Shown: positions 14,701 through 25,045 of the stretch, piece by piece
Numbering within the stretch: position 1 is the stretch's first letter
Layout: each line of letters opens with the position of its first letter
Origin: Candidatus Aenigmatarchaeota archaeon
Lineage (GTDB): Archaea > EX4484-52
Reading direction: 5' to 3'
NCBI GenBank assembly: GCA_023137195.1
Contig: JAGLPV010000040.1
Coordinates: 1-25,878, forward strand
DNA length: 25,878 nt
The notes under the pieces: generated by a model
The model's input: only the letters and a program-made list of their open reading frames with translations
What the model was told of the DNA's origin: nothing
The model's database searches: none
Made by a program: the position numbers and the translations under genes

Positions 14701-17700
14701 CTTCTTTATGATATCTATCTATTATTCCCTCTTCATCTCCACTAAGAAGTACGCCCTTCTCCTGAAAAATATCTCCTCCTCGATACGCATCTATCAACTC
14801 AGTTGCACCTACTCGTTCTAAGGTCTCAAGATATGCTTCGCTTGCCATAGGAATGTATTTTTGTTCAATCTCTTCTTTTGGAATGTTCAAATACCGGATA
14901 ACAGCACATAATCCCTCGCCCCTATAAAAAGGAAGATAAATCTTTCTTCGTCCAATCAGGTAGTTAATATCCTGCTTCATGTAGTATTTTATTTTACGAC
15001 TATTGTTGCTGTGATATTCGTGCCCAAAATCAGACACTGAATATATCTCTCCATTTGTAGATAAAAAGAAATTACCATAATGTGCATCTGTGCCGCTACT
15101 GTCACTGAAGCAAAATCCACTTGCGTGACAACGCGCCAAAAATATAAATGGTTCTTTCACTATTCGTTCAACTATTGCATCAAAACCTATTTTTGTTTCC
15201 CTTGAGATTCGATTTATATCTTCTACCCTTATATGGTTCAGCACTCTGCCTTTTGTGGTGATATCCAGTACTCTTTTCCCGTCTGGCATGAAAAAAAAGA
15301 TAAAACTAGGATTACCTTTCGAATAGCCATCATATTTCTCTTTTTTGCCATAAAAAGTATATTCTCCCTGCGGTAAGTCTACAATCATTATTGGCGGGAA
15401 AAATCTTCCATTATGCTTTTCTATTTGTTCAATGCCTTTGTAGAAATCAGTTTCATACACTTTTTTTTTATATGATAATTGCCCTGGGAACTTAATATTG
15501 GGACAATATTTTCTCCCGTTTATCTCCACAGGATGCATGAAAGTAAGACGTCTGAATCCACCAGTTACCGGATTTATTTTTATTGGTATTGGTAGTGATT
15601 TTGCACGGATATCTTTGCCAAGCCACTCGCATATCATTGACTTGGTTGTTTTTCCTGCAAAACGAGGATTTTTATATCTTATATCACACATTTCTTCTAG
15701 GAATTCCTTTCCTCTCTCGCCCACAAAATTATAAGGGGAGTATCCGAAATATTTTAAATATGGCTTGTACGCAACAATCTTTCCTGCAAATTTTCCGTTG
15801 TCTGCATAAGTAAAATCAAACTGGATGCAATTATTTTCTATTGTTTTATAACTGTATTTTAATTTCCTATGCCCTTCTTGGTGGATTGTGTCTTCAGATA
15901 CCTCTTTCCTGTGAGCAATATTGTTAAGTACATTTAATGCATCTGTTTTTCTTTCATTATCGATGTTATTGTATAATAATTCTTTTGTGGCTTTTTGTTT
16001 CGTATCATTGGTAATTAATTTTTCCGGGGTTGTTGAATCTCCACCAGAGAAAGCAATATTTCCATGGGTATTCAAATCTTCTGTCAAGGCTTTCTGACGC
16101 TTTTTTTCATCAGGCGAAGTAATGTTTTCCAACCTTTCCAGTTCTTCAGGGCTGTATTGTTCTTCTTTTTCCGACTTATTTTTCCTTCCTGACCCAAACA
16201 GGGCTTTTCTTTTTTTAAATAATCTCTTAAGTAGAGATGGCTTTTCCTCTCCTAAATTCTCCCCAATCGCATTATCTACTTCTTCCAGACTCGTCCTTTT
16301 ATTCACCGCCTTAAGCGTTTTATTAACCTGTGCACTCAATTTTTTATTCCCCGACCCACGCAACCCAATCAAAGGTCTGATTGCAGGAGCCAAATGACCG
16401 GCATATTTATCAGGAACACCTTTTGCGATATACTCCAGCAAACTCAAAGAATCCAAATACATATACTCCTGTCCTGAACTAATCATGTCAATCAAAGGCT
16501 CAATTGCATGAACCAATAAATGATATCTATCTTTCTGAAGTCTTGGAACCATTGTATTTAATGTCGTTATGGTTAGATAACGTGCATAATTATCTTTTTC
16601 CTCGACCAATGATCCAACTAAAAAAATTAATTCGACTAGAAAAGAAACACGTTCTTCGTTAGACATTGTATATTTGCCGATTTTTTGATTTTTATCTATT
16701 TTTTCATGAGTTTTATTTTCATAAAACTGACCATCTATTCTATTTATTTGCTCAGAAATTTGCCTTGAGAGAGGGTCTGTATCTGCATCTATGTAAGAAG
16801 TATTTTTAGAATAATCATAGTGTTCTAAGTTAGGAAACCAGTCGTCCCATTGTTTCCTGAATGTTTTGAAACTAATCTGTTTTCCTTCTAAAAAAGCCGT
16901 TTCTTTATCGTCCAATGTATTAAAAACAAGGCGTAATTTATCAAAAGAGGATTTATTAGTGGTGTAGAATTTTTTGAATAACCCTATATTTTTTTGGAGT
17001 TTAGTCAGAAAATCAATATCTATATCAACTCCTTCCAAAAAGAGACGATATGCATTTGCTTCTTCTTTTGGGATTTTATGTTTTATTTGTTTTAATTTAT
17101 CCGATACGATTCGCTTTTCTTTAACTAAATCTTCAATTATGTGTTGTAATTTAAACTCCATTGATGATTCGTAAGGGTACCCTATTTCCACTGACTGTCC
17201 AACATGAGAAATTACATATTTTAGCTTTAGTCCATAAAAAATATCTTTAGAAAAAAATAAAATTTCAATATGAGGGTATTTTTGTTTGGTCTTTTTTAAT
17301 ATTTCAATTTTTTCCTTGGGCGTTGCGTATATATATATTTTTAAAATATTTTTTAAATCAATATTTTCATTTACGAGAACATCTATTCCATGATTTTCCG
17401 TCCCATCAAATTTTACCGGAAGATTCTTTAATAAATATAATACTTTGTAAGGCTCAGCTAGGGGAAAATGAATCGCTCTTAAAAAATCATGCGTTACGTA
17501 TATTCTTCTCTTCTCTTCACCATGATTATATGGTGAATCCGGAAGGAATACGCCTCTTTCTAATTCAATAAATGAACTGCCTGTCCATATGCCTCTAATT
17601 TCCCTTGTTGTTTTTGCTTTGGAGATATGCTTCCACATTTCCTCCAACTTATATCTGCCTGCAAAATAGACCATCAAGTCAATATCTGTCTTTGCAATCC

Positions 17701-17740
17701 CTAAAGAATATGCTTTTTTCGGCTTTGCCCGATAAGTCAT
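8708..17740 (-). CDS. Giant multidomain protein (3010 aa as it stands; about 3053 aa before transposon insertion): HEAT/ARM repeats, kinase-like domain, TFIIB-type Zn ribbon, triple repeat, amidoligase-like C-terminus
   Basis: 9-kb uninterrupted ORF. Repeated AIxPLI HEAT motifs; DAHYGNFF...VSDFG; CPECG-x11-CNKCG; GVEIE...EYSP...LHVNLG...IEFR. The first 7 codons (MTYRAKP) come from the transposon left end. Confidence 0.85.
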   Translation of the reverse strand: MTYRAKPKKAYSLGIAKTDIDLMVYFAGRYKLEEMWKHISKAKTTREIRGIWTGSSFIELERGVFLPDSPYNHGEEKRRIYVTHDFLRAIHFPLAEPYKVLYLLKNLPVKFDGTENHGIDVLVNENIDLKNILKIYIYATPKEKIEILKKTKQKYPHIEILFFSKDIFYGLKLKYVISHVGQSVEIGYPYESSMEFKLQHIIEDLVKEKRIVSDKLKQIKHKIPKEEANAYRLFLEGVDIDIDFLTKLQKNIGLFKKFYTTNKSSFDKLRLVFNTLDDKETAFLEGKQISFKTFRKQWDDWFPNLEHYDYSKNTSYIDADTDPLSRQISEQINRIDGQFYENKTHEKIDKNQKIGKYTMSNEERVSFLVELIFLVGSLVEEKDNYARYLTITTLNTMVPRLQKDRYHLLVHAIEPLIDMISSGQEYMYLDSLSLLEYIAKGVPDKYAGHLAPAIRPLIGLRGSGNKKLSAQVNKTLKAVNKRTSLEEVDNAIGENLGEEKPSLLKRLFKKRKALFGSGRKNKSEKEEQYSPEELERLENITSPDEKKRQKALTEDLNTHGNIAFSGGDSTTPEKLITNDTKQKATKELLYNNIDNERKTDALNVLNNIAHRKEVSEDTIHQEGHRKLKYSYKTIENNCIQFDFTYADNGKFAGKIVAYKPYLKYFGYSPYNFVGERGKEFLEEMCDIRYKNPRFAGKTTKSMICEWLGKDIRAKSLPIPIKINPVTGGFRRLTFMHPVEINGRKYCPNIKFPGQLSYKKKVYETDFYKGIEQIEKHNGRFFPPIMIVDLPQGEYTFYGKKEKYDGYSKGNPSFIFFFMPDGKRVLDITTKGRVLNHIRVEDINRISRETKIGFDAIVERIVKEPFIFLARCHASGFCFSDSSGTDAHYGNFFLSTNGEIYSVSDFGHEYHSNNSRKIKYYMKQDINYLIGRRKIYLPFYRGEGLCAVIRYLNIPKEEIEQKYIPMASEAYLETLERVGATELIDAYRGGDIFQEKGVLLSGDEEGIIDRYHKEDRIRAHGKICTSLEENLEKLNLDDETKTQWIKYYQDKIFNKSFFSLLNPFSNKSIKSEIIERFRNNGFSENNLPKKYKMELAKSREFKELIGRPKGSPAVDFLHGKVEDIPFLIKALKHKDEQVVGRVASMLNSIAIDISEEEYGKIIPAIDPLLECIDSNKSNLTITVYCLGTINYISQKIPKDKIYKILHIIEPLIELLKSQNSIRKSDVARIIGLLAKKIQKDKYDKIIPAIKPLISTRQDQDYFGEADVSLRIIAKNIPEDKFNAFAPAIEPLIYLFNERLGVVATGKLKEVYEKNPWRYKKAFDDLQSKIPLHEKESMRYYGDDLGEKKSPLFNTRKALFGFGRNKDSTIHEKPRIATEKSNAISEKPKYKNPFKIIKDIANIPITRGTKNVYDTIDKLPDDEYLANHDSEILRSKNTEEVIGPLFDTLGRREKIKLHPGAFRVLASMGERVSDQLIHAWKHDPNPLLRRNCFVTLELMAKINPYGICRTIPSLIEASKDKNDKISKLAVYLIKKTGKRGMKEIKNLLRKKKVEMSDVLSLLDKMGYSSREIDKFQKEVERKGIFSRIGAVFSGSRKAMVGLPVSKKTNNTLLSNELRDKFGLELDELNLSNQQIIELTEELKKYDSLDQTSLFNVGVCPECGSKSITKGHSEFTCNKCGLTIERMEEPNQFNTPVSKGKEGELIRPEKLIGEALSSNDIRWLAHKAHKDPVVAANIYNIAELVAGGMSISRAINTIKEKLSEEDIERCKTIDKGVLKENILKFQKEAYKELEKSLSGRLSNHEFMSKITSYLKNAKLNLSPKNIRWMVSYRDCEKTIKSITELRKHIRNDFGMKMDDDKCCSLIKYLVYDKISDEDLFVAAMNSRNCRVVDEKSYSVALGKILGRTISEEDMGVATGELRKRYRLHNPTPDWSNTNPYYSSNLTIIEDKMMKGQSISQMKNQHDEFDDLEYSNQKKLFDKIKYCSLKYWSLTDSQIEELVKKYPDKYENIIKRCPLVEKYAKTKGLALPQIYIFLIARSHDNYQYIIDLYIIIKKYAHKKKVELTESNVYIMLVRYTRRYMEKIDSIVDLRTKIREKFGILINDDACFRITETNTKWKEAQDEWLAKKVVLNLRAIIVDARQFSNASVFLLGQKVSEFDVKIVMQLLERNKISPTYKNIVAKLREESKYDWIADTHMPLDKNTPDSNSVNEYDLAETEFENPGKSELYVKIKAYAWHKGVNLSDKNILFIIKKPNKYKEAIDRCLKAKEYAEDNNLELSETIRINLGTHTNYRNEIDKIVKLKKKIRVDCGIEFNDDSYFSIRCMFRSSLDKPEQLLVKIIGNISLSITNPKKFLEVAGKILRRDVSGYDTEQVRYLLLHQNERELPRKETSSDVSGVLEKNKSAELPDIFENTNKNEDIESLNSFINPKSSYKKPDEKKVELNKPVQKENLWTKIKERANNTRKASVHIPFIPNNQKSKYAKILAMLKKGKLNEFTEEDMPYLVYAIRNEKDKDIVSATISSIVPLVYRVPTNQLDKIRPMINPLIELFGEEKDEINRRDICCTISNISRRMNIYNYSLFDAQQIQELMEIAKKETKPDIKKRLIETIKSINTDKSNLINTVYENEITVELKEDLAFVEEATSLVKEVEKIKRGRRFLKGDFAALRFRAINQLKQRIAKEIIIMKLTEYSALIRSYYKYLPSMGVEIEIWEHLEDKLDKLLAKKVCNLFGIVDQPDKLIEYSPDPSENFVNQVIIVRKLKQYGLIPSQEYYPLHVNLGITDKDFSKKEYDALFLAYPMQILYTSNDRLDRGIISGTKKVAICNGKNRIEFRLFDITNALDNTGTIEPDGETNFIHLMRDFEWLGAMLKAKYNKNTDSISITLKKYFDDVYVPEIKKIFTGIEFSDQDKNRKELLNLRKTTNIQQSCKDFIDETRSHVKKIILEQIREEKAGVKNYSSQQKIPYSNNNIAPPKEAEVTGAKLKFILENIEKTSWTIEKLKKAIKEEGRGAS
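17712..17720. repeat. Left copy of the 9-bp target-site duplication GCTTTTTTC
   Basis: Identical 9-mer at 24826-24834; each copy directly abuts a TIR. Confidence 0.88.
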
Positions 17741-17783
17741 AAAAAACCAATACTTTTCGGGCAGGATTAAGACTTTTCGGGCA
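17721..17783. repeat. Left end: 17-bp TIR plus two subterminal ACTTTTCGGGCA copies (17752-17763, 17772-17783)
   Basis: Read directly; the 12-mer matches the inner part of the TIR (ACTTATCGGGCA) at 11 of 12 positions. Confidence 0.9.
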
Positions 17784-17791
17784 GAAAACTA

Positions 17792-18172
17792 TTATATAGA
17801 TGTTAAAGTTGGCTCATAACCATCATTTGTGTCTAATTCGTCTTTTAACTTTTTATTTTCAAGCCTTTTTCTCTCCAATTCCAACTTTTTTTCTTCCAAT
17901 TCCAACTTTCTTTTTTCTTCTTTATCTTTGATTTCTTTATCCTCAATTTTTTTCCATTTTTTAGAACCAAAAACAAATCCAATTATACAAATAAAAAATA
18001 ACACACCTATAAAAATACCATATGTTGTTTTACTTTCTTTCATAGGCAGATATTCATACCAAAACAAATACATAATGCCAAAACAAACAATAACCGAAAT
18101 AATTGTAATAAATGTATGATAATTAGTGGTAGTAGAGATAAATTCCTTAACTTCTTTCATTAATGTAATCAT
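17792..18172 (-). CDS. Hypothetical membrane protein (2 TM helices plus a charged coiled-coil tail)
   Basis: Hydrophobic segments FITIISVIVCFGIMYLFWY and YGIFIGVLFFICIIGFVFG, followed by an E/K-rich tail. Confidence 0.7.
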   Translation of the reverse strand: MITLMKEVKEFISTTTNYHTFITIISVIVCFGIMYLFWYEYLPMKESKTTYGIFIGVLFFICIIGFVFGSKKWKKIEDKEIKDKEEKRKLELEEKKLELERKRLENKKLKDELDTNDGYEPTLTSI

Positions 18173-18336
18173 TTAAACCACTTTATTATAGTTTCTTCAA
18201 CTACCGCCAATAAACCAACAATAATTATAGAAATAATTAAGACATTTGGTTGTTTGGCATATATGCTCCATCCAGCAAATAATGAAAATAGTATAATTAA
18301 ACCATTTATAATAAATCTTGTATTTTTTGCTTTCAT
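18169..18336 (-). CDS. Small 55-aa two-TM membrane protein (not in the ORF track)
   Basis: MKAKNTRFIINGLIILFSLFAGWSIYAKQPNVLIISIIIVGLLAVVEETIIKWFK*; its stop overlaps the next start as ATGA (18172-18169). Confidence 0.6.
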   Translation of the reverse strand: MKAKNTRFIINGLIILFSLFAGWSIYAKQPNVLIISIIIVGLLAVVEETIIKWFK

Positions 18337-18365
18337 GCAAATAATAAATGTTCAATTTTAAATTT

Positions 18366-19592
18366 TTATGCACAAACCCCCCTATCCATACCAAACTCCG
18401 CACTAATCCCCAACCCTTGCATCTCTTGTATAACCACACAGATATTATGACACACAACCTTGCATAATACCTCATTAACCTGTGAAGTCCATTTTTTGCT
18501 TCTTACCTTGTCGCCAAATTTAGATTTTATCATGTGAACAGTAGTTTCTGCGTTGCTTCTCTTATGGTAGTGTTGCATATAACTCTCGTTATTAAGCATA
18601 AAGTAGTGATACATCTTTTTCCATGCTACCGAACCGTTTGGCTTGGCTGTTGCATTTTTTTTGAAGGCAATATACGGTGTTGCACCCACATTTGCAATCA
18701 TATTGTGGTTTTCTCTCGAACTATATGCTTTATCTCCGCTCACCTCATTCATATCAAAATGCTCTGCTGTATTATTCACCAACTTTTTCATCTCTGGACA
18801 GTCATTACTATACTCGGTTGTTATGCTTACGCTTGGTATTATGTTTGTTTTTACGCCCGTTATGAAGTGGCATTTTACCCACTTTTTGGAGCATATTTCC
18901 CTGCCATGCTTAAAAGAGAACCATCTTTGAAAGTTATTTGTGCCAAATCCCGTGCTGTCAACTCCAAAATCATTTTCAACGCTTTTTAATGGCAGACTTG
19001 TTGTAGTTACTATATTAGATAATATTGATGTTAATTCTTTCTTATTAAAATAATCAAACATTGTATTGTAGGGTATTTTTTTACTAACATATCCTTTCTC
19101 TTGGGCTATTTCCATGTCGCTCATAAATCTCCTGCCGGAAAATGTAGAATATGTCTTAAATATCATTGTATAAATCATGTCGCTTATTGGTGTGGTAGGT
19201 CTGCCAAATTTATAATCCTGTTGTGGTATGTTGTTAGTTACATCTCCTAAAAGTTGCATGAGCATCTTTTTTTCTCCCTGCTGTGCTGTATTGTATGCGT
19301 TCCAATCCTGCTTATATGTCTTTCTCACAGTCTGTGTTACTGTTACATTACCCTTATTATCTACTTCTTCGGTTACGATAAATTCAACTGCGAAAATGTG
19401 TTTGCATTTACAGTTTCTCGTTTGGCAGTCGGGACAGTTGCATTTTGCCTCGAAACCGTTGCTTATTACCATATAAAAACCACTTCCGTATTGGCTTGGC
19501 ACTTTCCAGCCCTCTTTTGTCTTTTCTATTCTTGTTGTCTTTGCAATTTGCAATCCTCTTTGTTTTCTTGCTTCTATTTGTTGATTATCCAT
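18366..19592 (-). CDS. DDE transposase (IS5 family, IS903-like core) with an N-terminal SWIM zinc finger
   Basis: SWIM: CNCPD...CKHIFAV. Core: VDSTGF, WVKCH, GDKAYSS, YHKRSNAETTVHMIK, QVNEVLCKVVCHN. Start is ATG 19592 or GTG 19601. Confidence 0.9.
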   Translation of the reverse strand: MDNQQIEARKQRGLQIAKTTRIEKTKEGWKVPSQYGSGFYMVISNGFEAKCNCPDCQTRNCKCKHIFAVEFIVTEEVDNKGNVTVTQTVRKTYKQDWNAYNTAQQGEKKMLMQLLGDVTNNIPQQDYKFGRPTTPISDMIYTMIFKTYSTFSGRRFMSDMEIAQEKGYVSKKIPYNTMFDYFNKKELTSILSNIVTTTSLPLKSVENDFGVDSTGFGTNNFQRWFSFKHGREICSKKWVKCHFITGVKTNIIPSVSITTEYSNDCPEMKKLVNNTAEHFDMNEVSGDKAYSSRENHNMIANVGATPYIAFKKNATAKPNGSVAWKKMYHYFMLNNESYMQHYHKRSNAETTVHMIKSKFGDKVRSKKWTSQVNEVLCKVVCHNICVVIQEMQGLGISAEFGMDRGVCA

Positions 19593-19604
19593 TGTTATCA
19601 CATA

Positions 19605-19681
19605 TTCGTATGATTATATAGTAGTAATCTTTATAAATACACACCATTATCATACGAAAATCTATTAAATACGATAGATTT
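19605..19681. promoter_or_regulatory. Divergent promoter region with inverted repeats TTCGTATGAT/ATCATACGAA (19605-19614, 19649-19658) bracketing TTTATAAA (19630-19637), and AAATCTAT/ATAGATTT (19658-19665, 19674-19681)
   Basis: Read directly between the divergent transposase and AbrB genes; the operator role is inferred. Confidence 0.5.
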
Positions 19682-19716
19682 AAATAATTATTCATACAAT
19701 TATTATATAGATATTT

Positions 19717-19977
19717 ATGAAAAAATCAGATGAACTGCCAAAGGTAGATTACTCAAAGCTTCCAAAAGACATAGAAGATGTTGTAATAAATAGAGAAGAA
19801 TATGTAATAGAAGAAAAGGCAAAGCTTACATGGGACGGCAGACAGTTTCTTGTTCGCATACCATCTGAAATAGCAAAAGAGATGAATTTAAATAAAGAGA
19901 ATGTGGTAAAATTTAGATTAACAAAACCTCTGCCAGATTCAGAGGATAAACTAAAGTTAGATATAGAGATAGTATGA
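19717..19977 (+). CDS. AbrB/MazE/SpoVT-like DNA-binding protein
   Basis: KAKLTWDGRQFLVRIPSEIAKEMNLNKENVVKF fits the swapped-hairpin pattern. Confidence 0.72.
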   Translation: MKKSDELPKVDYSKLPKDIEDVVINREEYVIEEKAKLTWDGRQFLVRIPSEIAKEMNLNKENVVKFRLTKPLPDSEDKLKLDIEIV

Positions 19978-20174
19978 TTAAATTTACGCCAGAAGAAAAG
20001 CGAATAATAAGGACGCTGTATTCGGCAAATAAACCGCTCACTACAAAACGAATTTCAGAAAAGACGGATATGGCGTGGCAGACCGCAAAAAAGTATTTAA
20101 CTCTGTTACATAAAAAGAATGTAGTAGATAAAAAAAAATATGGGAAGTCTATATTTTGGTGGTTGAGAACTTAG
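19974..20174 (+). CDS. Small winged-helix HTH protein
   Basis: PLTTKRISEKTDMAWQTAKKYLTLLHKKNVV plus a beta wing; ATGA-coupled to the AbrB-like gene. Confidence 0.78.
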   Translation: MIKFTPEEKRIIRTLYSANKPLTTKRISEKTDMAWQTAKKYLTLLHKKNVVDKKKYGKSIFWWLRT

Positions 20175-20214
20175 TTAATAAAGTTGAAAAGTAAATAATT
20201 AAAAGGAGATTACT

Positions 20215-22557
20215 ATAGATTATCAAATTATCAAACAATATTTAGACAAACAAAAAATTAAGGTTGTTGAAACTTATGATTTTGAAAATAAAAAAGTAAA
20301 GTATTCTGAAAAAGTAGATGGTTGGAAAATTGATAAATTTAGAGGCGATGAAGAAGTCGTCAGAGCTTTCATTCTTGCAAAACTTGTCAACGAATTAGGA
20401 TATAAGCCAGAAAATATCAAAATTGAAAAAGAATATGATATAGGTAGACCAAAAGTAAATAAGCCGAGAATTGATATTATTGTTAGAGATAAAAAAGGCG
20501 GTTCTTTTCTTTATATTGAACTTAAAAGTCCACAAGATTATGAAAAAGAACAAGACGAAGTAATTGAAAAACAACTTTTCAATCTTGCATCACAAGAAAA
20601 AGGACAAGGAAATAATGTAAAATATCTTGTTCTTTATACTTTTGAAATTATTGATGATGAAATAAAAGATAAGTGCATAATAATTGATTATGAAAAATAT
20701 GCTTCTTTTGAATCTTGGAAGAAAGAAAGAAATTATCTTAATGAATTAAAAGGAAATTATGGTAAATCCAGAAAAATCGTATATAAAAATATTTTAGAAC
20801 ACAAACAAAAATATTTTATTACAACACTTACAGAAAGTCAAACAAATGAGTTGAAAACAAAAATACATAATACTCTTTGGAGTAATGGCGTATCAGATAA
20901 TGAAGCATATTTATTACTTGTAAAATATTTATTAACAAAAATTTATGATGAAAACAATACTATAGAAAATGAAGAATTTAAGTGTCAGGAATTTGAAAAC
21001 AATAATGATGAGGAAATATATGATAGAATAAATAAGAGATACAAAGAGGCATTAAAAAATAGATTAAACTATTCTTCTAAAGAAGTAGAGCAATTAAATA
21101 TTATAGATAAACAAAGAACAACAGAAAAATCATTATCTTTTTTAGTTAAATTAATGGAAAGATATTATTTTACCGATATTTTACGAAATAGTAAAGGTAA
21201 AGATATATTAGGAAAATTCTTTGAAGCAATAAATAGAGATGGTTTTAAGCAATCAAAAGGGCAATTTTTTACATCAAATAATATTGTAAAATTTATTATA
21301 TATGGATTGAAATTAGATGATTTAGCAATTGATTTAATAAATAATAAAAATAGATTGCCCTATGTTATAGACCCATCCGTCGGCAGTGGCACTTATCTCA
21401 TAGAACTTATGAAAATTATTACTAATGAAGTTCCAAATAATAAAAAATTAGCCAATACAAATACAGTAAAAAATTTTTTAATAAAAACATTTCCAAAGGA
21501 ATGTGAAAATATTTGGGCAGAAGATTATCTTTATGGGGTGGATAATTCATATGATTTAGCAATTTCTACAAAAGTAAATATGATTATGCATGGTGATGGA
21601 AGTAGTAGGATATATCATAAAGATGCTTTACTTGACTTTGAAGAATACAAAAATTTAAATGATAAATTATTTAACCAAATAAAAAATTCTCCTTTAATAA
21701 ACAACAAGAATGTTATAGAGCAATTTGATGCTGTTATATCCAATCCGCCTTTTAGTGTAGAACAAAAAGAAGAAAAATCAAGTTTAGATAAAATTTTTAT
21801 TTTTGGAAGTAAAAAGAACTCAGAAAATCTTTTCATTGAAAGATGGTATCAGTTATTAAAGCCAAATGGTCGTTTGGGTGTGGTTTTGCCCGAAAGTGTT
21901 TTTGATACAACAGAAAATAAATATATTAGGTTGTTTTTATACAAATATTTTAAAATAAAAGCAGTTGTGAGTTTACCCCAATTAGCTTTCGAGCCACACA
22001 CTAGCACAAAAACAAGTTTACTTTTTGCTCAAAAGAAAACCAAATCTGAAATTGAAGAGTGGAATAAACTTTGGAAGATATATTCTGAGGAATGGAAATA
22101 TCTAAAAACCAGATGCGAAAATCTTGCAAATATTTATCTTGAAGAAAATGATAGAAAGAAATTACATTCTATCAAAGACTTAACTGAAAAAGAAGAAAAA
22201 GAAATATTAACAAGAATGCTCAAAGATTATATTGAAAATGATGATAAAAAACTTTCTTCTAAAGAAATCGTTAAAAAGTATAAAGATGAACTCAAAGAAC
22301 TTTGCAAATACGATAATGACACGAAAGATGTTTTTAAATTTGTAAACACTTGGTGGGTTTTTGGAGAAGTTGCTAAAGAATTGAATTATAAAATTTTCAT
22401 GGCAGAAGTTGAAAATATCGGATACAAGAGAACTAAAAGAGGAGAAAAACCAATGCCAAATGAGCTTTATCGCATAAATGAAAAAGGAGAGGTTTTAGTA
22501 GATGATAGCGTTAAAGAAACCGCTTTGGATTATTTAAGGGATGTAAAATGGGATTAA
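20215..22557 (+). CDS. Fused restriction endonuclease (HsdR_N-like PD-(D/E)xK) and N6-adenine methyltransferase, about 780 aa, apparent ATA start
   Basis: Frame is open from 20203 and continuous with the 20851 ORF. N-terminal EEVVRAF...LGY...IEKEY...RIDIIV...IELKS; MTase GQFFT, DPSVGSG, NPPF. AAGGAG at 20203-20208 lies 6 nt before ATA 20215. Confidence 0.85.
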   Translation: MDYQIIKQYLDKQKIKVVETYDFENKKVKYSEKVDGWKIDKFRGDEEVVRAFILAKLVNELGYKPENIKIEKEYDIGRPKVNKPRIDIIVRDKKGGSFLYIELKSPQDYEKEQDEVIEKQLFNLASQEKGQGNNVKYLVLYTFEIIDDEIKDKCIIIDYEKYASFESWKKERNYLNELKGNYGKSRKIVYKNILEHKQKYFITTLTESQTNELKTKIHNTLWSNGVSDNEAYLLLVKYLLTKIYDENNTIENEEFKCQEFENNNDEEIYDRINKRYKEALKNRLNYSSKEVEQLNIIDKQRTTEKSLSFLVKLMERYYFTDILRNSKGKDILGKFFEAINRDGFKQSKGQFFTSNNIVKFIIYGLKLDDLAIDLINNKNRLPYVIDPSVGSGTYLIELMKIITNEVPNNKKLANTNTVKNFLIKTFPKECENIWAEDYLYGVDNSYDLAISTKVNMIMHGDGSSRIYHKDALLDFEEYKNLNDKLFNQIKNSPLINNKNVIEQFDAVISNPPFSVEQKEEKSSLDKIFIFGSKKNSENLFIERWYQLLKPNGRLGVVLPESVFDTTENKYIRLFLYKYFKIKAVVSLPQLAFEPHTSTKTSLLFAQKKTKSEIEEWNKLWKIYSEEWKYLKTRCENLANIYLEENDRKKLHSIKDLTEKEEKEILTRMLKDYIENDDKKLSSKEIVKKYKDELKELCKYDNDTKDVFKFVNTWWVFGEVAKELNYKIFMAEVENIGYKRTKRGEKPMPNELYRINEKGEVLVDDSVKETALDYLRDVKWD

Positions 22558-23969
22558 AAACTTTTACGATTGATTTTGCGGAATTATCTATTGATTCAAA
22601 AGTAGGATTAAAAGATTATTCTTGCTTATACAAAACAGGCATTCGTTTAAAGAGTTTTTTGTTAAACCAGAATGTTCAAACAGATATAAAATCAGGCAGA
22701 ACACCATCGAGATTTAATGAAGATTATTGGAATGGTGAAAATGAATTTTTAACAATGTCTGATGTTGATACACTAACTTTTTCAATAAATCCAGAATGTA
22801 CTGATAAAATTACCGATTATGCAGTAGAAGAGGAAAAAACACTTTATCAAGCAAAAGCAAACTCCTTAGTCGTTTCAAATGCAATGACCGTCGGTTTATC
22901 TTTTCTTTTAGATAGACCAGTTTTTATAAACCAAAATGTTTTTGAAGTAAATTTAGACGAGAAAAAAGTTAATAAAAAATTTGTTTTATGGTACTTGAAT
23001 TTAATTGTTAGACCTCTTTTTCAAACGATATACACATCAAAATATTTATCAAAAGATGAATTGGGGAGAATTAAAATCCCTTTAATCCCAAAACCAAAAC
23101 AAGACCAAATCGTTTCCAAAATAGAACCAATTGAAAATAAAATCAAAGAACTTAAAGCCCATATCAAACATCCACAAAAAATTATCAATAAAGTTTTTGC
23201 AAGAGAGTTTAGGTTTGATAAAAATTCATATAATGATTTTGGTAAAGGAAGGACAGCAGGAACACAAATAGCACAAAATAGAATTTTAAGAGTTTTTAAT
23301 ACTGATTTTAATGAACTTTCAAGAAGCAAAATAGCAAGATTTTCTACAAGATTCCATAATCCGCCAACAAAGAAGTTAATGGATTTTTTGGATAATATTG
23401 ATACTTTACAAGTAAAAGATGTTGTTGAAAGTTATGAAAAAGGAATACAACCAAAATATAATCCAGACGGAGATATACCTGTTGTAAAAATTGCAAATCT
23501 TAAAAACGGACATATTGATTTTTCAGGACCTGAATTTATCACACAAGAATATTATAATAAATTGGATGATAAGAAAAAATTAAAACAAAAAAATATAATT
23601 GTCTGTGCAACTGGAAAAATATCTTTGGGTAAGATTGATTTCTATGATTATGAAACAGAATCAATAACAACTGTAGATAATTATATTTTAAGATTGAAAG
23701 AAAATTATAATTCTCTATTTTTCACTTATTTTTTTAGAAGCATTTTGGGATATTTTCAGATTGAAAGAGATTTTACAGGAGCAACAAATCAAATACATCT
23801 TTATTGGGAGCAAATTTCAAATTTCCGAATCCCAAACATTCCTTTAAATGCTCAACAAAAAATCGTTGATGAAATAAAAGCAGAATTAGACAAGCAGGAA
23901 GAAGGTAAAAATAAAATAGAAACTGAAAGAAACAAAATTGATGAAATTATTGAAAAGGCAAGTAAATAA
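22548..23969 (+). CDS. Restriction-modification specificity subunit (HsdS-like, two TRDs)
   Basis: IKSGRTPS, IKIPLIPKPKQDQIV, IPVVKIANLKNG, FRIPNIPLNAQQKIVDEI; overlaps the MTase stop. Confidence 0.88.
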   Translation: MGLKTFTIDFAELSIDSKVGLKDYSCLYKTGIRLKSFLLNQNVQTDIKSGRTPSRFNEDYWNGENEFLTMSDVDTLTFSINPECTDKITDYAVEEEKTLYQAKANSLVVSNAMTVGLSFLLDRPVFINQNVFEVNLDEKKVNKKFVLWYLNLIVRPLFQTIYTSKYLSKDELGRIKIPLIPKPKQDQIVSKIEPIENKIKELKAHIKHPQKIINKVFAREFRFDKNSYNDFGKGRTAGTQIAQNRILRVFNTDFNELSRSKIARFSTRFHNPPTKKLMDFLDNIDTLQVKDVVESYEKGIQPKYNPDGDIPVVKIANLKNGHIDFSGPEFITQEYYNKLDDKKKLKQKNIIVCATGKISLGKIDFYDYETESITTVDNYILRLKENYNSLFFTYFFRSILGYFQIERDFTGATNQIHLYWEQISNFRIPNIPLNAQQKIVDEIKAELDKQEEGKNKIETERNKIDEIIEKASK

Positions 23970-24015
23970 GATTTTTCGATAATATTCTTAAACATCAAAA
24001 TAGTACTTATATTCT

Positions 24016-24394
24016 ATGGACTGGAAAGAAAATACAAAACAGACCTTAAAGACAAACTAAAAGAATCAGACGAGCAATACAAACTATACAAAGCCACAAA
24101 AAAAAAATAAAACACTTAAACAAGGCAGGAAATGCCTTGTTTATTGCAGTAAAAAAACATTTAATGATAAACTACAACCAAAGAATAAGCAAGAATTATT
24201 ATAATTCTCATAATGTAACGGGCGTTTTTCGTAAAATATTAAAATTGAGTGATGATGATAGGTTTTTACTTAGGACCGTCGATTATTCCCGCATAAAGAA
24301 TATCTATTATGGATGGGAACCCGAACCAGTAACAAATATGGATTATAAAGATGCACGGAAGAAAATGAAACGCCTAACTTTAGAAAAAATTTAA
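24016..24394 (+). pseudogene. Frameshifted paralog of the downstream 103-aa gene
   Basis: Three consecutive frames join into MDWKE-KYKTDLKDKLKESDEQYKLYKATKKK-IKHLNKAGNALFIAVKKHL..., which aligns with NLNKADEEYRLYNTTKEAIHLQNAGESLFKAVKKHI; both breaks fall in A runs. Confidence 0.6.
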
Positions 24395-24418
24395 AAATAT
24401 CAAATACCCCTATATGCC

Positions 24419-24730
24419 ATGGAATCAAAAGAAAATAATCTAAATAAAGCAGATGAAGAATACCGCTTGTATAATACAACCAAAGAAGCGATACACCTTC
24501 AAAATGCAGGAGAATCTTTATTCAAGGCAGTAAAAAAGCACATAAACGAAAAATACAATGAAAATGCAAAAAACTATGTGGATTTTTTTGATATAAAGAT
24601 GAATGAAAAAGACAGAAAATTGTTTATATTTACTAATATGTCCCGTTTGGGCGTTATGACTAAAAAAGATGATGAAGCTGTATTTATCGCAGAGCAGATG
24701 TATTTAGATTTAAGAAAAAGGATGAATTAA
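24419..24730 (+). CDS. Hypothetical helical protein, weakly HEPN/PaREP1-like
   Basis: 103-aa ORF; LQNAGESLFKAV resembles the QAxEKxxxA helix of PaREP1/HEPN proteins (tentative). Confidence 0.5.
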   Translation: MESKENNLNKADEEYRLYNTTKEAIHLQNAGESLFKAVKKHINEKYNENAKNYVDFFDIKMNEKDRKLFIFTNMSRLGVMTKKDDEAVFIAEQMYLDLRKRMN

Positions 24731-24745
24731 GTTATTTTTGGGTTT

Positions 24746-24764
24746 AAGCCCATTCATTGGGCTT
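24746..24764. terminator. Short hairpin AAGCCCA-TTCAT-TGGGCTT between the last cargo gene and the right end
   Basis: 7-bp perfect stem; terminator function is unproven. Confidence 0.25.
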
Positions 24765-24770
24765 GTGCTG

Positions 24771-24825
24771 ACTTTTCGGGCAAAAATTGGACTTTTCGGG
24801 CAGAAGCTACTTATCGGGCAAAGCC
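24771..24825. repeat. Right end: two subterminal ACTTTTCGGGCA copies (24771-24782, 24791-24802) plus the 17-bp TIR (24809-24825)
   Basis: Read directly; same 20-bp period as at the left end. Confidence 0.9.
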
Positions 24826-24983
24826 GCTTTTTTCAGAAGCTTTTTATATACCCGATACTGATCTTTTGTATCGAGCAATACTTGTCTTGGCTCTTCAGGT
24901 CGTCCCGTAATTCTTCCAAAAGGAGTTTTTTTAGATTCTAATTTATCTTCTTTTTTGTCATCTGTTTTTTTCAAAAAACCCAT
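24807..24983 (-). pseudogene. Detached native 5' end of the giant gene (now a 58-aa ORF that ends inside the element)
   Basis: MGFLKKTDDKKEDKLESKKTPFGRITGRPEEPRQVLLDTKDQYRVYKKLLKKA crosses the TSD in the same frame as KKAYSLG of the giant ORF; TATA-like TATATAAA at 25013-25006 upstream. Confidence 0.82.
24826..24834. repeat. Right copy of the 9-bp target-site duplication GCTTTTTTC
   Basis: Identical to 17712-17720. Confidence 0.88.
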
Positions 24984-25045
24984 GTAATTATTATATATTC
25001 AATTATTTATATATTTTACAAAATAACCAATAAAATAACAGACAT

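What the first reader, a model, noticed from the sequence alone, without database searches (positions are those of the whole stretch)
17721..24825. Complete 7.1-kb IS903-like cargo transposon in an archaeon carrying a restriction-modification system
Seen: perfect 17-bp TIRs starting GGCTTTG, a 9-bp TSD, and a single transposase located internally with passenger genes on both sides, so it is not a composite of two IS copies. Known (recalled): IS903 has GGCTTTGTTGAATAAATC ends, 9-bp TSDs and DSTG/WxKxH/D-x-AY/RSxxET motifs, but is about 1 kb with no cargo. Inference: a possibly undescribed family of archaeal defence-cargo transposons built on a SWIM-IS5 transposase with an AbrB-wHTH regulatory core.
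Basis: partly seen in the sequence, partly recalled or inferred. Interest (0 to 1): 0.88.

Follow-up and report, generated by a model that had tools for sequence, protein, structure and literature searches.

The report
IS903-related transposon carrying restriction-modification genes
A 7.1-kb jumping-gene element in an uncultured archaeon carries a DNA restriction-modification system, and it belongs to a large, apparently undescribed transposon family, found in archaea and bacteria, that mostly ferries such DNA-marking and DNA-cutting genes.

Summary
17721-24825 is a 7,105-bp unit transposon with perfect 17-bp inverted ends (GGCTTTG...), a perfect 9-bp target duplication and one 411-aa DDE transposase. 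It sits inside a giant host gene. Removing it in silico restores a 3,053-aa frame, same-genus orthologues read straight through the site, and one metagenome contig of a sister strain holds the empty site.

The transposase is a distant IS5-family, IS903-group relative (26% identity, same motifs, termini and 9-bp duplication) with an extra SWIM-like N-terminus.

Thirty-one of 80 related loci were delimited (one a duplicate). With the window that gives 31 elements of 2.7-8.2 kb, none compact, in DPANN archaea and in Chloroflexota and other bacteria. Twenty of 31 carry DNA methyltransferase or R-M genes. A conserved asymmetric three-site end architecture was found.

The cargo here is a nuclease-methylase fusion plus a specificity subunit (type IIG/IIB-like, not type I). 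Its nuclease part has no canonical start codon.

The proposed AbrB-wHTH "core" occurs in only 3 of 31 elements. The family is not only archaeal or only defence-carrying.

Verdict: real, a new variant of a known kind. Prior cataloguing (ISfinder) could not be checked.

The parts
17712..17720 (.). Left copy of the 9-bp target-site duplication (GCTTTTTTC)
   Evidence: Identical to 24826-24834. The 9 letters 'fit on either side' of the empty-site joint in run X4.
17721..17783 (.). Transposase-proximal end ('I-end'): the 17-bp terminal inverted repeat 17721-17737, with a 12-bp site at positions 6-17 and two inverted copies of that site at positions 32 and 52 (17752-17763, 17772-17783)
   Evidence: The pattern 6>,32<,52< recurs in full in 10 of 31 elements. 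The pattern 6>,32< recurs in 17 of 31, always at the end nearer the transposase gene.
17792..18172 (-). 126-aa ORF, predicted membrane plus coiled-coil protein; passenger of unknown function
   Evidence: Only sub-threshold Pfam hits. No relative in the other 30 elements.
18169..18336 (-). 55-aa hydrophobic ORF; passenger of unknown function
   Evidence: No Pfam or PADLOC hit. No relative in the other elements.
18366..19601 (-). 411-aa transposase: N-terminal SWIM-like CxCx(n)CxH module (C54, C56, C66, H68) plus an IS5-type DDE domain (D215, D290, E352)
   Evidence: Pfam PF01609 E 2.3e-16. NCBIfam transpos_IS5_2 125.2 bits, below the 140 cutoff. Invariant residues. 26% identity to an ISSpu20 (IS903-group) transposase with all motifs aligned. 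6,324 homologues at E<=0.001.
19602..19716 (.). 115-bp divergent intergenic region between the transposase and the AbrB-like/wHTH/R-M gene string; presumed shared control region
   Evidence: Coordinates. The function is inferred only.
19717..19977 (+). 86-aa AbrB/MazE/SpoVT-like small DNA-binding protein
   Evidence: 33 homologues, none with a Pfam family. Conserved Q-F-x-V-R-I-P-x-E-I motif. Model pLDDT 74. The best PDB fold matches are C56/C68 of pSSVi/pSSVx and MazE, but only at E 0.12-0.6.
19974..20174 (+). 66-aa winged-helix protein, overlapping the previous gene by 4 bp
   Evidence: Many sub-threshold wHTH Pfam hits, best DUF7342 E 9.5e-6. Relatives in L011 and L020 only.
20203..22557 (+). 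Restriction-modification fusion gene. The frame is open for 784 codons, with an HSDR_N_2 PD-(D/E)xK nuclease domain (aa 50-115 of that frame) and an N6-adenine methylase (aa 333-688). The first ATG/GTG/TTG is at 20851, after the nuclease domain.
   Evidence: The E-x-K motif is invariant against four relatives' cargo proteins. AAGGAG at 20203-20208. PADLOC MTase_II, MTase_I and REase_MTase_IIG hits.
22548..23969 (+). 473-aa specificity (S) subunit with two target-recognition domains, overlapping the R-M gene by 10 bp
   Evidence: Pfam Methylase_S E 4e-23, 2 stretches. PADLOC Specificity_I E 1.8e-32.
24137..24394 (+). 85-aa ORF, paralogue of the next ORF; function unknown
   Evidence: jackhmmer links it to the 103-aa ORF at E 3.8e-27.
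24419..24730 (+). 103-aa ORF; helical. PaREP1/HEPN-like is a lead only.
   Evidence: Atlas feature score 0.89, below the 0.9 bar. No Pfam hit.
24771..24825 (.). Transposase-distal end ('D-end'): three direct copies of the 12-bp site at positions 6, 24 and 44 from the terminus (24809-24820, 24791-24802, 24771-24782), including the 17-bp terminal inverted repeat 24809-24825
   Evidence: Six of the 7 genome-wide copies of ACTTWTCGGGCA lie in the two ends.
24826..24834 (.). Right copy of the 9-bp target-site duplication
8708..17720 (-). Downstream (3') 3,0xx-codon part of the interrupted giant host gene
   Evidence: Only sub-threshold Pfam hits.
24826..24983 (-). First 52 codons of the interrupted giant host gene
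   Evidence: Orthologues in G001 and G003 continue uninterrupted across this point.

Best explanation
17721-24825 is an intact, recently inserted unit transposon (a 'transporter IS'). Its single DDE transposase is a distant IS5-family, IS903-group relative that has gained an N-terminal SWIM-like zinc module.

Inferred mechanism. The transposase recognises a 12-bp site that is present three times at each end. The arrangement is fixed and asymmetric: sites at 6>,24>,44> at the distal end and at 6>,32<,52< at the transposase-proximal end. The transposase pairs the ends, cuts at the GGC termini and inserts into a 9-bp staggered target cut, as IS903 does. Here it landed in codon 53 of a 3,053-codon host gene.

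Backbone and cargo. The backbone is the roughly 1.6-kb transposase-proximal part: the I-end, the transposase and a small DNA-binding gene. Everything between that and the distal end is exchangeable cargo.

Cargo in this copy. It consists of (a) a co-directional string: an AbrB-like protein, a wHTH protein, a nuclease-N6-adenine-methylase fusion and a two-domain specificity subunit, which together form a type IIG/IIB (BcgI-like) R-M system whose two small DNA-binding proteins probably act as controllers at the divergent promoter region shared with the transposase; (b) two paralogous small helical ORFs; and (c) two small membrane ORFs. The R-M module would both defend the host and penalise loss of the element.

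Shown: the ends, the duplication, the empty site, the family-wide end architecture, the cargo content and cargo exchange. Inferred: transposase binding to the 12-bp sites, cut-and-paste chemistry, the regulatory role of the small proteins, and activity of the R-M enzyme.
For: Ends and duplication.

Insertion is real and recent. In-silico excision restores a 3,053-aa frame. The orthologues in G001 and G003 read ...KKAYSLGIAK... and ...KKAYNQNIAK... straight across the site. In run X4, one 841-bp contig (depth 6) joins 17711 to 24826, skipping 7,114 = 7,105 + 9, with 58 letters beyond the joint. Occupied junctions are bridged by contigs in X2, X3 and X4.

IS5/IS903 kinship: Pfam; NCBIfam best hit transpos_IS5_2; nearest named relatives at about 23% identity are IS903-group elements. 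An ISSpu20 copy has GGCTTTG termini, a 9-bp duplication and a length of about 1.06 kb. The motifs align.

Family. 31 of 80 loci have RGCTTTG ends plus a 9/9 duplication, with spans of 2,733-8,209 bp. The control gave 0 false hits among 1,403 pairs.

End architecture.

Cargo. Of 94 cargo ORFs of at least 100 aa, 13 match N6_Mtase, 6 N6_N4_Mtase, 2 D12, 1 EcoRI methylase, 1 C5 methylase, 5 Methylase_S, 5 HSDR_N_2, 3 HSDR_N, 2 AlwI, 2 HNH and 1 ResIII. By element, 20 of 31 carry a DNA methylase.

Cargo exchange. The L028 and L029 transposases are 98.3% identical, but only the last 1,644 bp of the two elements are shared. The cargo is an ABC transporter in one and a type III R-M system in the other.

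The R-M fusion in the window.
Against: There is no experimental evidence of transposition, DNA binding or restriction.

The element is single-copy in an 85%-complete MAG, so activity in this host is not shown beyond one insertion.

The empty-site DNA evidence is one Logan contig of a strain about 2% divergent (15 differences in 783 bp), not raw reads.

The R-M frame has no ATG/GTG/TTG for its first 216 codons. The nuclease may therefore be untranslated, which would leave a methylase-only product from the TTG at 20851.

The NCBIfam IS5 score is below the curated cutoff.

The fold search with the transposase model gave only weak RNase-H-type integrase matches, none at E<=0.001.

49 of 80 loci could not be delimited with the first criteria, and 44 with the relaxed ones. 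Many of these sit on short contigs. The '2/3 carry methylases' figure therefore comes from the delimitable minority.
Confidence: 0.85

Rival explanations
1. The element type is already catalogued, for example as an ISfinder IS5-family entry flagged with passenger genes or as a TnCentral transposon. In that case this is just another copy of a known element.
For: The transposase family is very abundant (6,324 hits) and occurs in well-studied groups such as Dehalococcoidia, so curators may have met it. ISfinder and TnCentral could not be queried. Supplementary tables of the papers read were closed.
Against: Sources name the homologues only 'transposase', not 'ISxxx family transposase'. The best NCBIfam IS model is below its cutoff. 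The nearest named IS in 72,556 plasmids are only about 23% identical. [quoted passage not shown] Six literature searches found no description. A 2026 survey of archaeal IS has 0 occurrences of 'passenger' or 'SWIM'.
Confidence: 0.3
2. The cargo is not a working restriction system. The nuclease part has lost its start codon, so the element now delivers only an orphan methylase with its specificity subunit (epigenetic or anti-restriction cargo), or a decaying module.
For: There is no ATG/GTG/TTG in the first 216 codons of the open frame, and the first one, a TTG at 20851, lies just after the nuclease domain. An M+S pair can methylate on its own (established knowledge of type I and IIB enzymes).
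Against: A 216-codon stop-free stretch in 29% G+C DNA, with a Pfam-significant HSDR_N_2 domain (37.9 bits, cutoff 25) and an intact E-x-K motif that is invariant against relatives, argues that the stretch is still under coding constraint. AAGGAG lies at 20203-20208, followed by ATT and ATA codons that could serve as a weak start. In relatives the nuclease domain starts 10-98 aa from the N-terminus, so about 50 aa here is a normal length.
Confidence: 0.35
3. The methylases are not passive cargo. They are part of the transposition control, marking the ends as Dam methylation does for IS903, IS10 and IS50, which would explain why most family members carry one.
For: 20 of 31 elements carry a DNA methylase. 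Dam control of IS903 is recalled from the literature and was not checked here.
Against: The methylases belong to at least five unrelated classes (gamma N6, beta N6/N4, D12, EcoRI-like, C5). They usually come with a matching nuclease (HSDR_N, AlwI, HNH, Mrr, GmrSD or ResIII domains), which is what R-M cargo looks like. 11 of 31 elements have none. Near-identical backbones carry an ABC transporter or a type III R-M system.
Confidence: 0.08
4. The structure is a coincidence or an assembly artefact: a simple IS next to an R-M island, with inverted repeats and a 'duplication' arising by chance or by chimeric assembly.
For: The sequence is a metagenome-assembled contig, and the element is single-copy.
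Against: The 17-bp ends and the 9-bp duplication are both perfect. The host reading frame is restored exactly by excision and is supported by orthologues. Independent contigs from three other runs bridge the junctions, and one holds the empty site. 30 independent relatives share the same architecture, with 0 control hits.
Confidence: 0.02

Closest known systems
IS903 and the IS903 group of the IS5 family (tested here against an ISSpu20 copy, L091)
   Same: GGCTTTG termini, a 9-bp target duplication and a DDE_Tnp_1 catalytic domain with aligned DxTG, WxKxH, GDxAY and RSxxET motifs.
   Different: Only 23-26% identity. The transposase is 411 aa against 307 aa, with an added SWIM-like N-terminal ~100 aa. 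The elements are 2.7-8.2 kb against ~1.06 kb and always carry passenger genes. Each end has three transposase-site copies in an asymmetric layout instead of a single inverted repeat. The score is below the NCBIfam IS5 cutoff.
Transporter IS (tIS), as defined by ISfinder/TnCentral
   Same: IS-like: a single transposase, inverted ends and a short duplication, plus passenger genes inside the ends.
   Different: [quoted passage not shown] This element belongs to IS5/IS903 stock and its cargo is larger (up to about 6.5 kb).
Transposon-like R-M units of Furuta, Abe and Kobayashi 2010 (PMC2853133; passages read)
   Same: R-M genes bounded by imperfect inverted repeats and a short (8-bp) target duplication, with an empty site in a sister genome. 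One unit held a type IIG R-M gene plus a type I S homologue.
   Different: Those units had no, or only a degenerate, transposase, and they were isolated cases in Xanthomonas and other bacteria. Here an intact dedicated transposase and a whole family are defined.
Type IIB/IIG R-M enzymes with a separate specificity subunit (BcgI-like; named in PMC2853133, otherwise recalled)
   Same: A nuclease domain fused N-terminally to a gamma-class N6-adenine methylase, plus a separate two-TRD S subunit.
   Different: No sequence-level membership was shown. The best PADLOC hits are generic MTase_II, MTase_I and REase_MTase_IIG models. The start codon of the nuclease part is missing. The cleavage pattern is unknown.
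Tn7-like transposons with defence cargo, and Mu (recalled, no paper read here)
   Same: Several transposase-binding sites per end in a left/right-asymmetric layout, and variable cargo rich in defence genes.
   Different: Those elements have multi-protein machinery (TnsABC+D/E; MuA/MuB), 5-bp duplications and unrelated transposases. Here there is a single DDE protein of IS5 type and a 9-bp duplication.
Aloposons of Heimdallarchaeia (mentioned in PMC11529989, passages read)
   Same: Archaeal transposons that carry cargo genes.
   Different: As described there, aloposons are associated with ParB-like partition proteins. No IS5-type DDE transposase, TIR or TSD is mentioned in the passages seen.

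Membership tests
IS5 family, IS903 group | DDE_Tnp_1 catalytic domain with the D, D, E motifs of the group | tested here: met
   Pfam PF01609 E 2.3e-16. The motifs are invariant in 24 sequences. They align with the ISSpu20 transposase at 26% identity over 182 aa, E 5e-16.
IS5 family, IS903 group | Score over the curated NCBIfam IS5 model cutoff | tested here: not met
   transpos_IS5_2 scores 125.2 bits against a cutoff of 140, and only residues 198-387 match.
IS5 family, IS903 group | Terminal inverted repeats beginning GGC(TTTG) | tested here: met
   Window ends. All delimited relatives have RGCTTTG ends. The ISSpu20 copy has GGCTTTGTTTCC....
IS5 family, IS903 group | 9-bp target-site duplication | tested here: met
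IS5 family, IS903 group | Compact element of about 1 kb encoding only the ~300-aa transposase | tested here: not met
   7,105 bp here. The 31 delimited elements are 2,733-8,209 bp, and the 4 added by the relaxed scan are 2,755-7,174 bp. The transposase is 411 aa.
Transporter IS (tIS) | IS-like ends and a single transposase, with passenger genes between the ends | tested here: met
Transporter IS (tIS) | Belongs to a family in which tIS are recognised (IS1595, IS66) | tested here: not met
   The transposase is IS5-type. The statement on the recognised families is from the passage.
SWIM zinc finger (PF04434) | CxCx(n)CxH signature, and a match to the Pfam model | tested here: inconclusive
   C54, C56 and C66 are invariant and H68 is at least 90% conserved. 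PF04434 is precomputed for a minority of the homologues listed, but the window's own protein gave no SWIM hit at E<=0.01.
Type I restriction-modification system | A separate HsdR (helicase-nuclease) subunit alongside HsdM and HsdS | tested here: not met
   No ResIII/helicase ORF in the element. Instead the nuclease domain is fused to the methylase.
Type IIG/IIB (BcgI-like) R-M with a separate S subunit | PD-(D/E)xK nuclease fused to an N6-adenine methylase in one polypeptide, plus a two-TRD S subunit | tested here: inconclusive
   The domains are present in one open frame (HSDR_N_2 37.9 bits; N6_Mtase 87 bits) and the S subunit has two stretches. There is no canonical start before the nuclease domain, and cleavage is not testable here.
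MADS (methylation-associated defence system) | MAD2 and MAD5 over the curated cutoffs, together with the other mad genes | tested here: not met
   MAD2 scores 167 bits against a cutoff of 720, and MAD5 scores 55 against 400. No other mad genes are present in the element.
AbrB/MazE/SpoVT swapped-hairpin DNA-binding proteins (the 86-aa ORF) | Swapped-hairpin beta fold, or a family HMM match | tested here: inconclusive
   No Pfam hit. The top fold matches are all of this superfamily (C56, C68, MazE, VapB, SpoVT, AbrB-N), but at E 0.12 or worse and with TM 0.4-0.7 by target length.

The most novel reading that the evidence does not exclude
This is the first recognised member of a cross-domain superfamily of IS903-derived 'R-M carrier' transposons. 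A ~1.6-kb backbone (the asymmetric three-site proximal end, a SWIM-DDE transposase and a small Zn-ribbon or wHTH gene) works with a distant three-site end. Cargo is swapped freely between near-identical backbones and is drawn mostly from restriction-modification and methylase genes. Such elements would be a major, so far uncatalogued vehicle that spreads defence and epigenetic systems within and between DPANN archaea, Chloroflexota and other uncultured lineages. They would also extend the tIS concept to the IS5 family.
Probability: 0.5. Interest if true: 0.72.

Novelty: new variant of a known kind. Interest (0 to 1): 0.62.

Why it matters
R-M systems are known to be mobile, but dedicated vehicles for them are poorly defined, especially in archaea and in uncultured lineages. 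This work defines a vehicle with exact boundaries, an intact single-protein transposase, a conserved and testable end architecture, and direct evidence of cargo replacement on a 98%-identical backbone. It gives a concrete handle on how defence and methylation genes move in DPANN archaea and Chloroflexota, where no genetic tools exist. It suggests a compact one-protein system able to carry at least 6 kb that could be tested as a transposon tool. It also shows that the IS5/IS903 lineage, thought of as minimal 1-kb IS, gave rise to cargo transposons with multi-site ends.

Tried and rejected

(2) Fold search of the transposase model (pLDDT 71.7) against the PDB gave only weak RNase-H-type hits (retroviral integrases, TnsB, piggyBac) with TM by query of at most 0.36 and none at E<=0.001. 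This adds nothing beyond Pfam.

(3) Pfam, PADLOC and NCBIfam on the small ORFs (126, 55, 85, 103 and 86 aa) gave no hit over any cutoff. The PADLOC hits to CasR, Csa3 and Csn2 are weak and were treated as generic wHTH or helical matches.

(4) The Atlas lead for the 103-aa ORF (PaREP1/HEPN-like, score 0.89) is below the 0.9 bar and is kept only as a lead.

(5) A search for an HsdR elsewhere in the genome (ResIII) found 9 generic helicase matches. It was dropped once the nuclease domain was found fused to the methylase.

(6) Other joints (for example 18476>24790, 17753>20646, 18623>21393) have 20-33 letters on the short side, close to or under the 30-31 letters the tool asks for. At 90% likeness they probably come from related elements in other organisms, so they were not used. 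Parts of the element with low depth in X5 are not interpreted.

(7) The relaxed-scan pair in L089 (12474-18568) does not contain the transposase match and was dropped. L030 duplicates L029 and was dropped before counting.

(8) In L016, L050 and L062 my greedy ORF caller did not call a transposase ORF and instead picked antisense or other ORFs. These three were kept as elements on the strength of the tblastn match, but they were left out of the transposase-identity comparison.

(9) Other copies or solo ends in the assembly: none found.

(10) The Pfam scan of the giant host protein gave only sub-threshold Zn-ribbon, HEAT and Arm hits.

(11) The supplements of the papers read were closed. The tables of Furuta 2010 and Krupovic 2019 might list related units.

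Full report
OBSERVATION

The window is the whole contig C35 of a 1.42-Mb assembly with 57 contigs that is 85% complete. The assembly is archaeal: it encodes a two-repeat TATA-binding protein, a family that hit only the 4 archaea among 14 control genomes.

The sequence GGCTTTGCCCGATAAGT at 17721-17737 is the exact reverse complement of 24809-24825. The match is perfect for 17 bp and then ends. GCTTTTTTC flanks both ends, at 17712-17720 and at 24826-24834. The 17-mer occurs only at these two places in the assembly. The element is 7,105 bp and has 28.9% G+C, against 35.0% for the rest of the window. It holds one transposase gene (18366-19601, minus strand) and no second copy exists in the genome.

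THE INSERTION IS REAL AND RECENT

The element sits in a giant gene on the minus strand. The first 52 codons are at 24983-24828 and the rest runs from 17719 down to 8708. Removing the element and one duplication copy in silico gives one uninterrupted 3,053-codon frame with the junction ...YRVYKKLLKKAYSLGIAKTDIDL.... Two same-genus genomes have orthologues that read straight through the same point...YKNLIKKAYSLGIAKIDVDF... in G001 and ...YENLLKKAYNQNIAKTDVDL... in G003.

Contigs of four other metagenome runs were laid on 16500-25878.
- In X4, one 841-bp contig (depth 6; 15 differences in 783 bp, so a sister strain) joins 17711 directly to 24826. It skips 7,114 = 7,105 + 9 bases, 9 letters fit either side, and 58 letters lie beyond the joint.
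- Contigs bridging the occupied junctions are present in X2 (17371-18644), X3 (17302-17917) and X4 (24194-24883).

This is contig-level evidence from one contig, not raw reads. It agrees exactly with the duplication.

WHAT THE TRANSPOSASE IS

- Pfam gives DDE_Tnp_1 (E 2.3e-16, residues 214-387).
- The best NCBIfam model is transpos_IS5_2, at 125 bits. This is under the 140-bit cutoff and covers only residues 198-387.
- In 72,556 plasmids the nearest annotated relatives, at about 23% identity over residues ~99-386, are IS5-family elements that PGAP names ISSpu20, ISPam2, ISRusp1 and ISGNB1.
- One ISSpu20 copy (L091) has GGCTTTGTTTCC... termini, a 9-bp duplication (GCTCCTATC) and a length of about 1.06 kb.
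- Its 307-aa transposase aligns with ours at 26% identity, with DxTG, WxKxH, GDxAY and RSxxET in register.

The first ~100 residues have no counterpart in ISSpu20. They contain C54-x-C56...C66-x-H68, invariant or nearly so in 24 homologues, which is the SWIM signature. PF04434 is precomputed for a minority of the homologues but did not reach E 0.01 on the window's protein. An AlphaFold model (pLDDT 71.7) shows three strands and two helices there. The fold search added only weak RNase-H-type integrase matches.

THE FAMILY

- The protein has 6,324 database homologues at E<=0.001. The top 120 are 61-70% identical, and where they carry a label it is Woesearchaeota, Aenigmarchaeota or Nanoarchaeota, always just 'transposase'.
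- A scan of one genome per species returned 234 related stretches, of which 80 were kept. About 40% are archaeal by their labels (49-71% identity). The rest (43-49%) are from Dehalococcoidia, Chloroflexia, Eremiobacterota/Vulcanimicrobiota, Pyrinomonadaceae and others.
- Searching each locus for RGCTTTG...CAAAGCY pairs with at least 14 of 20 matching end bases and at least 7 of 9 duplication bases delimited 31 of the 80 loci. All 31 have 9/9 duplications and spans of 2,733-8,209 bp.
- As a control, of 1,403 end pairs tested, 29 passed, and 0 passed when the duplication windows were moved out by 40 bp.
- Relaxed criteria added four more loci that contain the transposase (2,755-7,174 bp). Two of these are in one MAG, with the same ends but different lengths.
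- Nothing under 2.7 kb was found, although the scan accepted spans down to 1.3 kb.
- 44 loci remain undelimited. Many of them are on short contigs.
- Two of 4 related viral-collection contigs also hold delimited 3.8-kb elements.

Positions 6-17 of the terminal repeat (TGCCCGATAAGT here) recur inside both ends. Six of the 7 genome-wide copies of ACTTWTCGGGCA are in the element's ends.
- Read from the outside in, the right end of the window has three direct copies at positions 6, 24 and 44.
- The left end has the terminal copy at position 6 and two inverted copies at positions 32 and 52.

The same test was applied to every element with its own 12-mer, allowing up to 2 mismatches. The full 6>,32<,52< pattern appears in 10 of 31 elements, and at least 6>,32< in 17 of 31. 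In all 17 this end is the one nearer the transposase gene, whichever way the gene points. The opposite end typically shows 6>,24>,44>.

Fixed spacing across elements whose 12-mers differ in sequence argues that these are functional transposase-binding sites. It also argues that the two ends are not equivalent.

CARGO

I called ORFs in the 30 non-redundant related elements (L030 duplicates L029) and scanned all 94 non-transposase ORFs of at least 100 aa. Numbers of ORFs matching each Pfam family:

| Pfam family | ORFs |
|---|---|
| N6_Mtase | 13 |
| N6_N4_Mtase | 6 |
| MethyltransfD12 | 2 |
| EcoRI_methylase | 1 |
| C-5 DNA_methylase | 1 |
| Methylase_S | 5 |
| HSDR_N_2 | 5 |
| HSDR_N | 3 |
| RE_AlwI | 2 |
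| HNH | 2 |
| ResIII | 1 |

Per-protein scans assign these to elements. 20 of 31 elements, counting the window, carry at least one DNA methylase.
- 13 carry a nuclease-N6-methylase of type IIG style, with or without a separate S gene: the window, L011, L016, L020, L023, L027, L032, L050, L055, L060, L062, L086 and L088.
- The other 7 carry: a C5 methylase (L013); an EcoRI-type methylase plus GmrSD/HNH (L014); two N6/N4 methylases (L021); a D12 methylase plus HNH (L025); type III mod plus res (L029); and N6/N4-methylase-Mrr fusions (L061, L079).
- L028 carries a six-gene branched-chain amino-acid ABC transporter.
- 10 elements have only unannotatable or other genes.

Cargo is exchangeable. The L028 and L029 transposases are 98.3% identical, yet only the last 1,644 bp of the two elements align (94.9%). 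That stretch covers the Zn-ribbon gene, the transposase and the proximal end. The rest is an ABC transporter in one and a type III R-M system in the other.

THE SMALL GENES BESIDE THE TRANSPOSASE

Profile searches of six-frame translations of all 31 elements gave the following.
- The AbrB-like 86-aa protein and the 66-aa wHTH protein occur together in the window, L011 and L020 only (3 of 31).
- A Zn-ribbon protein (CxxC...CPxCKSPYW) occurs in 11 of 31, in archaeal and bacterial elements and with any cargo.
- XRE-type and RHH-type proteins occur in others.

The AbrB-wHTH pair is therefore a subgroup feature, not the family core.

The AbrB assignment itself is plausible but weak. There are 33 homologues and none has a Pfam family. 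The motif QFxVRIPxEI is conserved. The top fold matches (C56 and C68 of Sulfolobus plasmid-viruses, MazE, VapB, SpoVT, AbrB) all belong to that superfamily, but at E 0.12 or worse.

In the window these two genes, the R-M gene and the S gene form one co-directional string (19717-23969) with gaps of no more than 28 bp. The string diverges from the transposase across 115 bp. A controller role is inferred from that layout only.

THE R-M MODULE OF THE WINDOW

Standard ORF calling starts the methylase at a TTG at 20851, giving 568 aa. That made the module look like type I M+S with no R. Read from stop to stop, however, the frame is open from 20203, for 784 codons.

The extra 216 codons contain an HSDR_N_2 PD-(D/E)xK nuclease domain (37.9 bits against a cutoff of 25). 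Its E-x-K motif is invariant against four relatives' cargo proteins. Relatives have the same domain 10-98 aa from their N-termini. Together with the two-domain S subunit, this is a type IIG/IIB, BcgI-like layout.

There is no ATG, GTG or TTG in those 216 codons. AAGGAG lies at 20203-20208 and is followed by ATT and ATA codons. Three readings remain open: the nuclease is made from a non-canonical start, it is attenuated, or it is dead and a methylase-only product is made from 20851. The MADS hits are far below their cutoffs.

IS IT KNOWN?

I could not query ISfinder or TnCentral. Six full-text searches found no description of IS5/IS903-type transposons with passenger genes, of SWIM-DDE prokaryotic transposases, or of R-M-carrying transposons in DPANN archaea.

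Passages read:
- Furuta et al. 2010 (PMC2853133) describe isolated R-M units with inverted repeats and 8-bp duplications, without a functional transposase.
- Krupovic et al. 2019 (PMC6563490) treat thaumarchaeal IS-like transposons as elements of 1-2 genes.
- A 2026 archaeal IS survey (PMC13343696) has no occurrence of 'passenger' or 'SWIM'.
- Valentin-Alvarado et al. 2024 (PMC11529989) mention aloposons as the only Asgard cargo transposons.

Sources name the homologues only 'transposase'. Supplements were closed.

I therefore rate the finding as a new variant of a known kind (an IS5/IS903-derived transporter IS family), with about a 30% chance that curators already hold it under some name.

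VERDICT

The finding is real and well bounded, and its central interpretation holds. Four corrections apply:
- the family spans both domains;
- the cargo is R-M-rich but not exclusively defence;
- the AbrB-wHTH pair is not a core;
- the R-M system is a nuclease-methylase fusion with an unexplained missing start.

Three features were added here: the conserved asymmetric three-site ends, the ~1.6-kb backbone with cargo swapping, and DNA-level evidence for the empty site. Interest is 0.62.

Noticed in passing
window 20203-20850: The nuclease-coding first 216 codons of the R-M frame contain no ATG, GTG or TTG. AAGGAG at 20203-20208 is followed by ATT (20209) and ATA (20215). This could be a non-canonical start, an attenuated nuclease or a lost start codon. 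It remains unresolved.
   Followed up: partly
window 17738-17740 (minus strand): The base triplet just inside the left terminal repeat supplies an ATG in frame with the downstream 3,0xx codons of the interrupted giant gene (ORF 8708-17740, product beginning MTYRAKPKKAYSLG...). Outward transcription from the element could therefore still express the truncated host protein. This may be coincidence.
   Followed up: no
window 8708-17720 and 24826-24983 (minus strand): The interrupted host gene encodes a 3,053-aa protein conserved in the genus (48-53% identity in G001 and G003). It has only sub-threshold Pfam hits (TFIIB-type Zn ribbon, HEAT, Arm). It is a giant protein of unknown function.
   Followed up: partly
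L028:3866-11266 and L029:3058-11266: Two elements have 98.3%-identical transposases and share only their last 1,644 bp. One carries a six-gene ABC transporter and the other a type III R-M system plus a DUF2779 protein. This is direct evidence of cargo replacement and points to how cargo is captured: the distal end is replaced while the backbone is kept.
   Followed up: partly
L053:7356-11314 and L057:4153-11326: Two copies in one Chloroflexia MAG have the same end sequences but lengths of 3,959 and 7,174 bp. The family is therefore multi-copy, with different cargo, within a single genome.
   Followed up: no
L055:5743-11297: The type IIG-like R-M gene of this element is split into two N6_Mtase-bearing ORFs (434 and 425 aa) by an intervening 258-aa ORF. 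That ORF clusters with an L079 ORF, and rve/rve_3/HTH_21 domains were each found in exactly two cargo proteins, so it is probably a nested IS3-type insertion.
   Followed up: partly
Target duplications listed: The bacterial (Chloroflexota) elements have similar duplications: CCCAAGGGG, TCCCTGAGG, CCTCCGAGG, CCCTCGACG, CCTCAAGGG, CCCTTGATG, CCCTTGACG, CCCTCGATG. This suggests a preferred, partly palindromic target. The archaeal duplications are A+T-rich and show no obvious consensus.
   Followed up: no
window 24137-24730: Two tandem small ORFs (85 and 103 aa) are paralogues of each other. They have a weak PaREP1/HEPN-like resemblance (Atlas score 0.89, a lead only). No relatives occur in the other 30 elements.
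   Followed up: partly
L100:7756-11535 and L101:7717-11549: Two contigs of 118-138 kb from the viral collection hold delimited 3.8-kb family members with perfect 9-bp duplications. The elements may ride on viruses or prophages, or the contigs may be misclassified.
   Followed up: no
window 25046-25876 (minus strand): The window ends in the C-terminal part of a topoisomerase-like protein with several CxxC zinc-ribbon repeats. This is ordinary host context and is unrelated to the element.
   Followed up: no
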